Assembly (NCBI GenBank): GCA_020137815.1
Contig: CM035356.1
Span: forward strand, 6,510,001-6,574,000
Direction: 5' to 3'
From: Hormiphora californensis
Taxonomy: Eukaryota > Animalia > Ctenophora
Length of the DNA: 64,000 nucleotides
Shown here: in pieces, positions 16,243 to 21,600 of the stretch
How positions within the stretch are numbered: position 1 is the first letter of the stretch
Layout of the letters: each line of letters begins with the position of its first letter
Made by a program: the position numbers and the translations under genes
Notes under the pieces: generated by a model
Told to the model about the DNA's origin: nothing
Seen by the model: only the letters and a program-made list of their open reading frames with translations
Database searches by the model: none

Positions 16243-18016
16243 ATGGACCACCCCCAATTATTGGGACCCATCCACCACCACCACATGGTGGAGCCCATAC
16301 CCTGGATGGAGCCCATAAAAAAGGAGGATAACCTGCCTGTGGTGGGGGGTCCCCCAGGGGCCCCAAATTACACTCCTACTGATTCGTGTAGTGTTGCAGC
16401 AGGGGATGTGGGGAGTCTGGAGGACTTTGAGGTGGAGAGGATTATAACGTGAGTTAGATTGTTATACTGATAACTGATAACCCCCACCCGTCGGTCCAAG
16501 GGTAGATCCTACAACTTTACTCAACCCCTTCCCCCTCTCACACCCAGATATAAGAAATCCATGGGTAGATCCTATTAACTCCTACCCCCTCCTAGATCTA
16601 AAAAGTCCAAGGGTAGATCATACTACTTGATACGCTGGAAGGGATACAACAGTGACGATGATACTTGGGAGCCGGAGGAGAACCTGGCAGGGTTTACCAT
16701 CCTTGATCAGTATAGACGGTTCCATCAGAAACGGAAAAGGTACTTACCATGCAACATATTATATGTATTATATGATCTCCTGGGACAAAGTTTCATTTTA
16801 CAGCGCAGTATTCTTTAGTTAGGTTTGAGTCCCCAAATTCCACTAATATTAATCTCTCCTACGCCCTGTTGCTTTCAGGTGTTCAAGTTCGGATAGCGAC
16901 CTTGGTGATGTGTCACAGAGTTCTTGCGCTCAAAAGGTGGGTTACATTGAGTCCTCAACTAATACAATCCATTACTAGCGTCTAACACCCCTGATACCGA
17001 GTTATTAACACCCTAACTAACACCCTAACTAACACCCTAACTAACACCTTAACTAACACCTTAACTAACACCTTAACTAACACCCTAACTAACACCCCTG
17101 ATACCGAGTTATTAACACCCTAACTAACACCCTAACTAACACCCTAACTAACACCCTAACTAACACCCCACCCCCCAGGTACCGGCTCACTCCCCCCTCT
17201 ACACACCAATAACATCAGGAGGTGCCCCCGTGCTACACCCCTCCGGAAACATCGTGCTAGTGCGACGAGGGAGATCCTCGGGGGTCCCAATAGTCCGTAA
17301 ACGCCGCTCCACCAAACCCAAAGACTACCATTGCACGGTGTGTGGCAAACAATACTCCACCAAATACACCCTCCAATCACACCTACTTAAAGGTGCACAA
17401 TCACAGCGAGTGCCTGATATGTGAGGACTGTGGGTATTTGGGGGATACCAAGGCTAAACTAGACCGGCACAAGGAGAGATATTGTAAGTGGGATGGTAAG
17501 GGTAGTACCTCCTCAACCCCTTCCTCCGCCCACCCCACCACCGATGAAATGTTCCATTGTAACAAGGAGGGGTGCTATGCGCTCTTTAAAACTGAACAAC
17601 AACTCTGGATGCACCAGTGTAAGGTGGTTAAACGGAACCGAACACGGCTAACAAGCGAGGAGGCTGAGCTAAAGAAGATTCACCCCTGTCATCTGTGTGA
17701 GAAGAGGTACGCCACAAAGTACACACTAAAGAGTCACATACGGAATGTTCACGATGGTATTGGAAACTACATGTGCACACAGTGCCCCTTTATAACAGAC
17801 AATAGGGTGTTATTCGATCAGCATATAGCAACTCATACCGGTGAGAAACGGTTCAAATGTATTCATTGCGATTACGGGACAATACAGAAGAACAACCTAC
17901 TGCAACATGTTTCCAAGTATCATAAGGATGGTAGTAGTGGTAGTGGTGGTGGGAATAATAATAACAATAGTCATGGTTCTGGTACTGATAACACTGCTAA
18001 TACTGCTGCTTCTTGA
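16243..18016 (+). CDS. Chromodomain + six C2H2/C2HC zinc-finger protein (one apparent +1 frameshift at ~17390)
   Basis: Exons 16243-16448, ~16596-16739, ~16879-16936, 17179-18016. Chromodomain [38 protein letters not shown]. Fingers CTVC..H..H, CEDC..H..C, CNKEGC..H.C, CHLC..H..H, CTQC..H..H-TGEKRF, CIHC..H..H. Confidence 0.85.
17005..17170 (+). repeat. Intronic 12-bp tandem repeat (caccctaactaa)
   Basis: Directly visible. Confidence 0.85.
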
Positions 18017-18659
18017 AAAGAGAGAGATGTATTGAAGAGATATAATTGAAGAGAGAGTTAAATGAAAGCTGTTAAATTGCACGTTAATTGGGCATTGGAG
18101 GACAGCTGGTATACTGCTCTATATATATACTGCATTAAACCTAGAGGTGGTGTGTTTGCTTGGGTGCAAGTTGTGTGTCAGTACATAGCTGACTTCAACA
18201 GTGTCAGAGCAATAATGGCTTGAACAGTGATAGCTGAATTGGCTTCAGAGAGCGATGCAATAACAAGCGATGGATAACAAGTTGAATGGAATAAAATTGA
18301 ATGGATTTATTAAGACTGTTGAGAAGAGTTAATTAATGAACTTATATATCTAACACTAATTAGTATTATACATTAATTGATATATTATATTTAGTGTCTT
18401 TAGTATCTATTTTTTTGTTCCAAAACATTTATTCTGTGATACATTATAATATGTTCAATTTTAATATATTACACCACTTTAAATATGACTCCTCTCTCCT
18501 GCACACCTTTCTCCCACCTTTCTTAAATAATATCAGAATTCGGATAAACATAACCGATAGACAAGTTTTGACACAGATCTATAGAGTCCCAATAAAGATC
18601 CTCCTGACTGTGTATTTTCAGTAAATTCGCAATACAACCTCTCTCTACCTAGTAGTACT

Positions 18660-21600
18660 ATGACAGAAGAAGTGAAACAAGAGATAAAGTCAGAGGTCGC
18701 CCCTCCGGAAACTGGAGAGGGAGGGAAGGGGGCAACTGGAGGAGAGGGAGGGAAGGTAAAGGAGGAAACTCCTGCTGAGGGAGGTGAAGAAGAGGAAGAA
18801 GAGGAGGAGGAAGAGGAATATGAGGTGGAACGAATTGTCAGGTTAGTACAGGGTGTCACATCTTCACAGATCTTGTAAACATGTGTTCAACATACCCCCA
18901 ACTTTAGGTTAGTACAGGGTGTCCTACTATTAGTACAATGACACTTTCACAGATCCTACAAACATGTGTTGAGTGTTTAATGCATGCAGGTACAACTTCT
19001 TAATAATGATAATAATGATTTAGGCCTACAATCCCCCCTCCAGTTCTAAGAAGTCAAAGGGTGTAGTATATTTCCTTGTCCGGTGGAAGGGTTATGGCAG
19101 TGACGATGACACCTGGGAACCAGAAGAGAACTTGTTGGATTGTAAGGAAGCACTGGAGGAGTATAAGAAGAAAATGGCCGTGCCCAAAAAACGAAAAAGG
19201 TTTGTTTTCAACAGCTCCTTTTTACTACTTTCTTAGTTTTTTGTACGACCTTCTAACCCCCTGTTTGACTTAGTAACCTAGCGCACCGACAAGAGAGGTA
19301 GCGCCTTGGATTTTTTCAGTGTAAAAGAAAGTTTGAACACCATTTCTTCTTCTCTCAGGTTCAAACTGTTCAGAACAATACATCCCTATCTCTATTTCTT
19401 CTCTCAGGTTCAAACTGTTCAGAACAATACAGCCCTATCTCTATTTCTTCTCTCAGGTTCAAACTGTTCAGAACAATACAGCCCTATCTCTATTTCTTCT
19501 CTCAGGTTCAAACTGTTCAGAACAATACAGCCCTATCTCTATTTCTTCTCTCAGGTGGTTCAAACTGCTCAGAACAATACAGCCCTATCTCTATTTCTTC
19601 TCTCAGGTTCAAACTGTTCAGAACAATACAGCGCTATCTCTATTTCTTCTCTCAGGTTCAAACTGTTCAGAACAATACAGCCCTATCTCTATTTCTTCTC
19701 TCAGGTTCTTCAGTTCTGGCAGCGACGAAATGAACTCACTCCCAGCCAAAAAAGACAAAGCCGTGGAAAAGAAAAAGGCGGAAAAGAAGGAGAAATCCAT
19801 GAAAAAAGAGTTAAAGCCATCAGATGAGGTCAGAGCAAAGAAGGATAAACCAGATATAAAACGGGAAAAACAATCGAGACCAAAGGAAAACAAACCCACT
19901 CCTGAAGTAAAGAAGAAGTCAGAGAAAAGAACGTATAAGTTAGCAGATGAGGACACGATAGGGATTGGGACACCTCGACCTGAGAAAAAGAAAATCCCAA
20001 AGAAACCACCACCACCGCCGCTCACACCCCAGCGGTCATCTCAGGTAAAGGGTTGTACAGGGTTGTACAGGGTGTTTCATTGTGATCGAGCCACTTCCTC
20101 TTTATTAGGTTTCGGAATGGGAATCTCCAATCATGATCAGGTGTAAGACTGGTGTACCACCTCTTTTTTTCCCGATTTAGTTGATATTAACTCATCAGAT
20201 GCTTGATAACATTTTTTTATTAATTTCACCATCAGGTGCTGGAGAACGCTGTCCGGTTCTTTTCCGACAAATCCGGTGGGACACCAGAACACAGGTCATC
20301 TCCCTCCTCTGCTGCACTTGAGAAGCCAGTTGATGTAAGGCAGCTGAAACAGGAGAGAAAGAAGAAGAGGAAAGAGAGGATGAATCAGCCTACGTCACAA
20401 CAATCCCAGCTAGATGAACAAATGGTACATAACTCACTTCATTTTACCATCATTCATCAATATATGAACCCTGTCAGGCAATCCTTTCGACCTCAACTCC
20501 CCTCGTGACTTTCTCACCTATTTTATTAGATAGTCGATAACATATATTTTCGTTGATAATTAGATCTATTACTGACTATAGGAAGCATATAAGAAGCATG
20601 TAAATTCACCCACGTTGCATAAACACACCCCGTCTGCAGAATAGATAGAATATCACAGGCGTGCTGGTCTTGATAGATTGATAATACATTATTTATAAGA
20701 TCTATGAAATATTTCGTGACCCTATCGAATAGCTCTGACCTAAGTTTGGTTATATAACACCAGTCAGTGAATGAAGACTGTATTGTAAGACTGTATTCTA
20801 AGACTGTATTGTAAGACTGTATTTTAAGACTGTATTGTAAGACTGTATTATAAGGCTGTATTGTAAGACTGTATTTTAAGACTGTATTTAAGACTGTATT
20901 CTAAGACTGTATTCTAAGACTGTATTGTAAGACTGTATTGTAAGACTGTATTTTAAGACTGTATTGTAAGACTGTATTGTAAGACTGTATTGTAAGACTA
21001 TACATTGTAAGACTGTATTCTACAACTGTATTGTACGACTGTATTGTAATTCCCACGCAGACAGAAGAGAGTGCCCAGATAGACCCAGAAACGGATACCT
21101 TTGTGTCCAGTATAGCCCATCTTGAGGACCTCATCCTGCCATTCGGGGTGGATGTTAGGGTTCCCCAAGCAGATGGGGTCCACCGTGTTACCCTTCCCGT
21201 ACCGCTAGAGTTCGAGGACCCATCAGGTAATTATCCAGCAGGAACCGACCGAATCAGGAAATAATGGTCCCTGATTGGCTGATAACTAGTCCCGTGACCT
21301 AAATAACGAGTTCTGATTGGTTGTTTACTTGTGTCGGTCGGTTCCTGAATTCCAGTGTGTTTTTCTATCTTCAATAAAACTGGGAGTGCTTTTTTATTCG
21401 ATCCCGATGCGTCAACTATACTATTGATATTGGGATACATAACAACAGATGACATGGTTTGTTAAATTCTAATATACACAAAAACTAGCTCTCCGACACC
21501 TGCCGCGATCGAGCACTCTTCCGCCGTAACGGAACTCTACTACTAAATTCTAACATAATTAAATTAACAGTGTATTGTAATTACAGGTAAAATGAGTGGT

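What the first reader, a model, noticed from the sequence alone, without database searches (positions are those of the whole stretch)
16243..19730. MPP8 chromodomain duplicated and fused to a zinc-finger array directly upstream of MPP8
Seen: both genes have EVERI(I/V)x|SKKSKG..(I/V)[18 protein letters not shown]..SSxSD, with introns at the same two positions and in the same phase 2. Homology then stops: one gene continues into six C2H2/C2HC fingers, the other into ankyrins. Aromatic cage residues (F/Y, W, Y) are kept in both. Known: the MPP8 chromodomain binds H3K9me3. Inference: a local partial duplication made a methyl-lysine reader with its own DNA-binding array, a possible lineage-specific sequence-targeting partner or competitor of HUSH-like silencing (conceptually analogous to KRAB-ZNF targeting).
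Basis: partly seen in the sequence, partly recalled or inferred. Interest (0 to 1): 0.76.

Follow-up and report, generated by a model that had tools for sequence, protein, structure and literature searches.

The report
Copied methyl-lysine reader fused to zinc fingers
Right upstream of an MPP8-like silencing gene, this animal genome carries an intact gene under purifying selection that joins a copy of the neighbour's chromodomain to six zinc fingers, so it likely reads a DNA sequence and a methylated lysine in one protein, but it lacks the part that human MPP8 uses to join the HUSH silencing complex.

Summary
Gene A (16243-18016, 4 exons, about 414 aa) has a chromodomain and six fingers (4 C2H2, 2 C2HC). 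Gene B (18660-24284, 9 exons, 648 aa) has chromodomain, ankyrins and a beta-rich end. The chromodomain cores are 30/38 identical and share two phase-2 introns, which a relative's ortholog of B lacks. Independent contigs lack the extra base, so it is an assembly error. Allelic changes are 32 synonymous of 37 listed, so A is a working gene. The copy is old: introns are unalignable and 15 of 30 same-residue codons differ. No ortholog of A was found. B is probably MPP8 (weak fold match to the human C-terminal region). A lacks that C-terminal part, which human MPP8 needs for TASOR binding, so 'HUSH partner' is unsupported. More likely A is a one-chain DNA-plus-methyl-lysine reader, like Kipferl and Rhino fused. 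Chromodomain-plus-C2H2 proteins exist elsewhere (7 of 150 library hits), so this is a new variant of a known kind. Expression and binding are untested.

The parts
16243..16448 (+). Gene A exon 1: first ATG, low-complexity leader, start of chromodomain (cage F62); phase-2 intron follows
16596..16739 (+). Gene A exon 2: rest of chromodomain (cage W83, Y86), diverged C-terminal helix 4 residues shorter than in B, basic stretch; phase-2 intron follows
16879..16936 (+). Gene A exon 3: short serine/acidic stretch whose first residues match the start of B exon 3; phase-0 intron follows (predicted, no spliced read)
17179..18016 (+). Gene A exon 4: basic linker and six fingers. C2H2 17332-17398, C2HC 17420-17485, C-x4-C/H-x-C at residue 263, C2H2 17687-17752, 17774-17836, 17858-17923. 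Fingers 1 and 4 share recognition residues; fingers 4-6 are closely linked
17387..17391 (+). One extra base in the window (frameshift in finger 1), absent from independent contigs: assembly error
18017..18381 (+). Probable 3' untranslated region of A (AATAAA at 18290); the only part matched closely by run X7, whose RNA status is a guess
18660..18841 (+). Gene B exon 1: acidic leader, start of chromodomain (cage Y54); phase-2 intron follows
19044..19199 (+). Gene B exon 2: rest of chromodomain (cage W75, Y78); phase-2 intron follows
19705..22724 (+). Gene B exons 3-8 (19705-20044, 20236-20424, 21061-21226, 21587-21675, 22310-22462, 22631-22724): charged linker, conserved pre-ankyrin segment, ankyrin repeats
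23707..24284 (+). [quoted passage not shown]

Best explanation
Gene A is an intact, selected gene that likely arose when the chromodomain exons of the adjacent MPP8-like gene were copied in tandem and joined to a zinc-finger last exon, and its protein is predicted to hold chromatin with two keys, fingers likely reading DNA and the chromodomain likely reading a methylated lysine. Shown: gene anatomy, open frame in independent contigs, purifying selection, closest kinship of the chromodomain to B, no ankyrin or C-terminal part. Inferred: fingers 4-6 (closely linked, one canonical TGEKR-type linker) are the main DNA-reading unit of about 9 bp. The chromodomain would bind H3K9me2/3 or the H3K9-like methylated tails of G9a/GLP, SETDB1 and ATF7IP, as human MPP8's does. 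A would then stabilise or seed H3K9 methylation at chosen sequences without entering a HUSH complex.
For: Origin: B is the top match to A's chromodomain among 716 domain hits from the proteins fetched plus the two gene models (177 against 163 for the relative's ortholog). Both chromodomain introns are shared by A and B but absent from the relative's ortholog, whose first exon runs 711 nt unbroken and which shares later intron positions with B (L003 against L001). A, B and the relative group at 98/93 in a 30-row tree. The relative has B's architecture (50% identity over 610 columns), so B is the parent. Function kept: 32 synonymous of 37 listed coding differences against 0.22 expected (P about 1e-16); 14 of 18 beyond the frameshift; none of the 5 replacements hits a zinc ligand or cage residue. 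Cage spacing F62 to W83 equals human MPP8 domain start 59 to W80 (PMC7618375; PMC6172828). Human MPP8's chromodomain binds H3K9me3 and methylated methyltransferase peptides, and H3K27me3 only weakly (PMC7618375). Precedent in two chains: Kipferl and Rhino (PMC9531945).
Against: No binding, localisation or expression data. No RNA holder is on record; the X7 signal is weak and unspliced. The first, 70-row tree placed A with two long-branch rows and gave only 71/79 for the wider group; 13 long-branch proteins were put on a drop list. A+B is neither shown nor rejected (p-AU 0.51; B+relative 0.34). No vertebrate MPP8 or CDYL row was in the trees. By sequence, exon 2 of A scores higher against CDYL/CDY structures (E 2e-11 to 3e-9) than against MPP8 (8e-9). 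A's chromodomain evolves faster than B's (branch 0.49 against 0.18), and its C-terminal helix is diverged, so specificity may have shifted. Two of six fingers are atypical and the array is loosely spaced. The variant tables show only the best-supported rows (48 and 35 hidden).
Confidence: 0.55

Rival explanations
1. A is a sequence-targeting partner of a HUSH-like complex, acting as KRAB zinc-finger proteins do for TRIM28.
For: It sits 644 bp upstream of the MPP8-like gene. B's last exon gives a weak whole-length fold match to the human MPP8 C-terminal region. TASOR-like proteins are reported in invertebrates (PMC10578480, passages).
Against: A lacks the ankyrin and C-terminal domains that bind TASOR in human MPP8 (PMC7618375; PMC7532188). 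HUSH is described as targeted by nascent RNA through periphilin and as first appearing in cartilaginous fish (PMC7619638).
Confidence: 0.08
2. A is an ordinary lineage-restricted transcription or architectural factor whose borrowed chromodomain now reads another mark or a non-histone methyl-lysine, or serves as a protein-contact surface, with no role in silencing.
For: Faster evolution and a diverged C-terminal helix in A's chromodomain. Comb jellies have lineage-specific C2H2 proteins with architectural roles (CTEP1/2; PMC12221973, passages).
Against: The core, including all three cage residues, is kept at 30/38 identity although synonymous sites and introns have diverged widely.
Confidence: 0.2
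3. A competes with MPP8 or HP1 for H3K9me at finger-chosen sites; without an effector end it would act as an anti-silencer or boundary factor.
For: Reader kept, effector part absent.
Against: No direct evidence. Human MPP8's chromodomain can itself recruit methyltransferase subunits (PMC7618375; PMC6172828), so a reader alone need not be inhibitory.
Confidence: 0.09
4. A's chromodomain exons are a shared front end rather than a fixed gene: they could splice onto B's exon 3 (both junctions are phase 2) or onto other zinc-finger last exons elsewhere in the genome.
For: Phase compatibility. An unreviewed note on the same genome reports 19 same-phase zinc-finger last exons with no known front half (e1-10417560).
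Against: No other finger exon lies in this window. B has its own complete front. No spliced read was available, and the link to the 19-exon array was not tested.
Confidence: 0.06
5. A is a pseudogene or an assembly artefact.
For: The window shows a frameshift in finger 1. No ortholog or transcript was found.
Against: The extra base is absent from contigs of two samples. Overlapping contigs of run X2 cover all 30 bins of 16100-19340. Synonymous excess 32 of 37.
Confidence: 0.02

Closest known systems
Human MPP8 (MPHOSPH8), HUSH subunit
   Same: Gene B: N-terminal chromodomain, charged linker, ankyrin repeats, then a helix and a beta-rich domain, with a weak fold match to PDB 8qfb over 190 columns. 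Gene A: the chromodomain with the same cage spacing.
   Different: B is shorter (648 against 860 aa) and its last domain shows no sequence match to the human one. A has fingers in place of the TASOR-binding ankyrin and PINIT-like part.
Drosophila Kipferl (ZAD-C2H2) with Rhino (HP1 variant)
   Same: DNA sequence read by C2H2 fingers combined with an H3K9me-reading chromodomain to pick a subset of marked chromatin (PMC9531945, passages).
   Different: Two proteins in the fly, one chain here; an HP1-type domain there, an MPP8-like one here. No chromoshadow or ZAD domain was hit in A, and no piRNA link is shown.
KRAB zinc-finger proteins
   Same: Short N-terminal module on separate exons joined to a finger array on one last exon; sequence-specific route to H3K9 methylation (PMC7619638 introduction).
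   Different: The module here is a methyl-lysine reader, not a TRIM28-binding KRAB domain. One gene was seen, not an expanded family. The array is short and irregular.
Unnamed multi-chromodomain plus C2H2 proteins (P0013, P0018, P0019, P0043, P0049, P0127, P0146; P0043 from the copepod Neocalanus flemingeri)
   Same: Chromodomain and C2H2-pattern fingers in one chain.
   Different: Three to seven chromodomains and one to three fingers, two with BTB. Pfam finger hits are below the curated cut-off (3 of 7). None ranks among the 15 domains most similar to A's, so independent origin is inferred.
CDYL/CDY chromodomains
   Same: Best sequence matches of A exon 2 among solved structures.
   Different: No crotonase-like domain was hit in A or B (CDYL architecture recalled). 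A's nearest domain in hand is B's.

Membership tests
MPP8 (gene B) | N-terminal chromodomain with aromatic cage | tested here: met
   Pfam Chromo E 8.7e-16; Y54/W75/Y78
MPP8 (gene B) | C-terminal ankyrin repeats | tested here: met
   Ank hits in three exons; relative P0001 Ank_2 E 2e-16. Repeat number was not counted against the human five.
MPP8 (gene B) | PINIT-like beta-sandwich after the ankyrins | tested here: inconclusive
   Model pLDDT 56. Foldseek ranks 8qfb_A 20th of 350,542 chains, E 9.9e-3, TM 0.35 (highest among listed rows), 190 columns. Not in the top 50 of the VIA wide search; no sequence hit.
MPP8 (gene B) | Binds TASOR and periphilin in a HUSH complex | not testable with these tools
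   No genome held
MPP8 / HUSH subunit (gene A) | Ankyrin plus PINIT-like C-terminal region that binds TASOR | tested here: not met
   A ends after the fingers
Methyl-lysine-reading chromodomain (gene A) | Three-residue aromatic cage | tested here: met
   F62/W83/Y86
Methyl-lysine-reading chromodomain (gene A) | Measured binding to H3K9me2/3 | not testable with these tools
   Needs a peptide binding assay
C2H2 zinc-finger DNA-binding proteins (gene A) | Tandem C2H2 fingers with short linkers | tested here: met
   Pfam zf-C2H2 and zf-H2C2 hits; fingers 4-6 closely linked; fingers 2 and 3 atypical
KRAB zinc-finger proteins (gene A) | KRAB domain | tested here: not met
   No KRAB hit in exons 2 and 4. 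Exons 1 and 3 were not scanned and look low-complexity.
HP1/Rhino family (gene A) | Chromoshadow domain | tested here: not met
   No Chromo_shadow hit in the scanned exons
Tandem partial duplicate of gene B (gene A) | Shared derived intron positions and closest kinship of the copied domain | tested here: met
   Tree order within A, B and the relative is unresolved, and intron loss in the relative is not excluded.

The most novel reading that the evidence does not exclude
An early-branching animal (a comb jelly by an unreviewed note on this genome) has both a true MPP8 and a home-made, KRAB-free sequence-specific silencer built from MPP8's reader: the fingers pick a repeat or transposon sequence and the chromodomain recruits self-methylated H3K9 methyltransferases, seeding heterochromatin in one step, possibly as the swappable front end for many finger exons.
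Probability: 0.2. Interest if true: 0.8.

Novelty: new variant of a known kind. Interest (0 to 1): 0.5.

Why it matters
How non-vertebrate animals without KRAB proteins aim H3K9 methylation at particular sequences is largely open. This locus shows a traceable birth of a reader-plus-finger protein, with parent and copy side by side and dated by shared introns. It gives a small, testable one-chain counterpart of the Kipferl-Rhino pair. The probable MPP8 ortholog is itself useful, since a 2025 review places the first HUSH in cartilaginous fish (PMC7619638). The practical lesson is that the gene looks broken in this assembly but is not, so annotations may have dropped it.

Tried and rejected
Whole-genome search for paralogues and for TASOR/periphilin: no genome held. 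Orthologs of A: finger region against proteins of 313-2000 aa, 0 of 138 candidates at E<=1e-10 (shorter proteins not searched); chromodomain exon, 104 of 128 candidates passed and none shows a finger family; metagenome contigs gave 2 generic finger proteins, L004 and L005. These blanks are weak. Representative search was swamped by multi-chromodomain proteins. Expression: no RNA holder listed. X9 gave only two 37-base chance matches, and X8 (organism B) only low-complexity matches. X7 covers 18020-18381 at depth 2-4 with no splice joint and may be DNA. Synteny: in two long contigs carrying the relative's gene (no DNA held) no chromodomain or finger gene is called in the 10 kb upstream, but the neighbours have no evident match to this window and gene calls miss small exons. 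Fold of the relative's C-terminal 310 aa failed (pLDDT 43, only ankyrin hits). Atlas searches gave ankyrin clusters and low-scoring beta-sandwich rows, no MPP8. The VIA second look on Foldseek's top hits was not run. A mini-exon at 20110-20141 in B was rejected because it breaks the frame. A recent duplication was rejected: intron 2 and the exon-1 leader score no better than shuffles (196 and 17 of 200 reach the score); intron 1 and exon 3 are marginal (5 of 200 each). No complex prediction was run, as a methylated peptide cannot be given. Ten literature searches listed no paper on an MPP8-derived chromodomain-finger gene; the library lacks most subscription papers, and no supplements were read. 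Earlier-findings look-ups found no match to this locus.
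Full report
Anatomy. Two genes lie head to tail on the + strand. Gene A has exons 16243-16448, 16596-16739, 16879-16936 and 17179-18016, all with GT-AG introns of phases 2, 2 and 0. Gene B has nine exons from 18660 to 24284; of eight boundary choices tried, one had all GT-AG ends and it gives an open frame of 648 aa. Pfam finds Chromo in both second exons, C2H2 families in A exon 4, and ankyrins in three B exons. Both models are predictions; no spliced read was available.

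The shared part. Over the first 38 residues of the domain, A and B are 30/38 identical, against 26/38 and 27/38 for each with a relative's ortholog of B, P0001. The last 12 residues of the domain do not match between A and B, but similarity returns at the basic and serine stretch across intron 2. Both introns sit at aligned positions. The cage residues are F62/W83/Y86 in A and Y54/W75/Y78 in B. Human MPP8's domain starts at residue 59 (PMC7618375, passages) and needs W80 (PMC6172828, passages), the same spacing. The copy is not recent: 15 of 30 same-residue codons differ, and introns show little or no similarity beyond shuffles.

Read as written, A's frame breaks inside finger 1 and stops at 17424. 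Contigs of sample S2 lack one base at 17387 at full depth. In sample S1 both haplotype contigs over 17301-17449 are one letter shorter than the window; the gap place is listed for one haplotype only. S1 may be the source of the assembly. Any one-base skip between 17294 and 17424 gives a 414-aa protein with six fingers. My inference is that the assembly kept one letter too many at a variable site. The listed coding differences are 32 synonymous and 5 replacement of 37, against 0.22 synonymous expected, and 14 of 18 beyond the break. The tables hide 48 and 35 weaker rows, and no row for exons 2 or 3 was listed. This is strong evidence of a translated gene under purifying selection, in the finger frame.

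Origin. Among 716 chromodomain hits drawn from the fetched proteins and the two gene models, B is the best match to A, followed by the relative's ortholog. That ortholog aligns with B at 50% over 610 columns. Its genomic copy (L003 against transcript L001) has no intron in the first 711 bases, yet has introns at or near four later B positions. So both chromodomain introns are shared by A and B and missing in the relative, which fits duplication after intron gain in this lineage; loss in the relative is not excluded. A 70-row tree was unresolved and drew A towards two long-branch rows. With 13 long-branch proteins on a drop list and 30 rows kept, A, B and the relative group at 98/93, but A+B against B+relative is undecided (p-AU 0.51 and 0.34). 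No vertebrate MPP8 or CDYL was in the trees, and CDYL/CDY structures outscore MPP8 against A exon 2 alone.

Is B MPP8? The domain order matches. Human MPP8 ends in five ankyrins and a PINIT-like beta-sandwich (PMC7618375, passages). A two-sequence model of B's last exon (pLDDT 56) shows ankyrin helices, a long helix and a beta-rich domain. Foldseek ranks the human MPP8 C-terminal structure 8qfb 20th of 350,542 chains, with the highest TM-score among listed rows (0.35) and 190 aligned columns. The VIA wide search did not list it, and sequence searches found nothing. I rate B as probably MPP8, about 0.8.

How A likely works. Fingers 4-6 are closely linked C2H2 fingers; fingers 1 and 4 share recognition residues, suggesting an internal repeat; fingers 2 and 3 are atypical. 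[quoted passage not shown] A inherited only the dispensable reader, so it should not enter HUSH by the known interface. The best reading is a one-chain, two-key binder that stabilises or seeds H3K9 methylation at chosen sequences. Every functional step here is inferred.

Comparison and novelty. Kipferl guides Rhino by binding DNA and Rhino's chromodomain (PMC9531945, passages), the same logic in two chains. Chromodomain plus C2H2-pattern fingers in one chain occurs in 7 of 252 proteins scanned, all among the 150 library representatives; one is from a copepod, and all have several chromodomains. So the combination is not unique, but I found no MPP8-derived case in ten searches. Papers seen: PMC7618375, PMC9531945, PMC10578480, PMC6172828, PMC7532188, PMC12221973 as passages; PMC7619638 as passages plus the introduction; others as listings only; no supplements. 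No ortholog of A was found, which suggests but does not show lineage restriction. The comb-jelly assignment comes from an unreviewed note on the same genome and was not tested here.

Verdict. Real, functional, locally born reader-finger gene; HUSH partnership unsupported; mechanism untested. New variant of a known kind, interest 0.5.

Noticed in passing
window 24316-28602: Foldback-like element starting 32 bp after B's stop codon: inverted arms of 1765 bp at 94.7% identity around arrays of a 32-bp tandem repeat. Could be a foldback transposon or an assembly fold.
   Followed up: partly
window 11815-15018: Stop-free frame of 1067 aa on + with a coding 21-bp repeat of about 35 copies and no Pfam family; further probable exons near 15151-15319 and 15467-15592.
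   Followed up: partly
window 8497-8784: THAP domain (E 1.7e-5) followed by more + strand frames to about 11370; a second possible DNA-binding gene in the same cluster.
   Followed up: no
window 19347-19708: Intron 2 of B holds 7.3 copies of a 49-bp unit, each containing a splice-acceptor-like end; two upstream copies (19408, 19555) are in frame without a stop, so longer isoforms are possible.
   Followed up: partly
window 16456-16591: A second haplotype has a much shorter, unrelated intron 1 in gene A with the exons kept.
   Followed up: no
window 61894-63999 (-): Long unbroken frame with DEP and DEPDC5 C-terminal domains; runs off the window.
   Followed up: no
window 43362-45914 (-): LDL-receptor class A repeat followed by what looks by eye like a seven-transmembrane receptor region, nearly intronless.
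   Followed up: no
window 30180-30422 and 31164-31406 (-): Near-identical 80-aa frames 984 bp apart inside the span of an aldo/keto reductase gene, suggesting a local direct repeat.
   Followed up: no
P0013, P0018, P0019, P0043, P0049, P0127, P0146: Unnamed proteins with 3-7 chromodomains plus C2H2-pattern fingers, two with BTB, one from a copepod; possibly an undescribed family.
   Followed up: partly
P0212, P0224, P0228, P0230, P0231 and similar: A group of about 500-660 aa proteins joining a chromodomain to a linker-histone domain (PF00538 plus PF00385).
   Followed up: no
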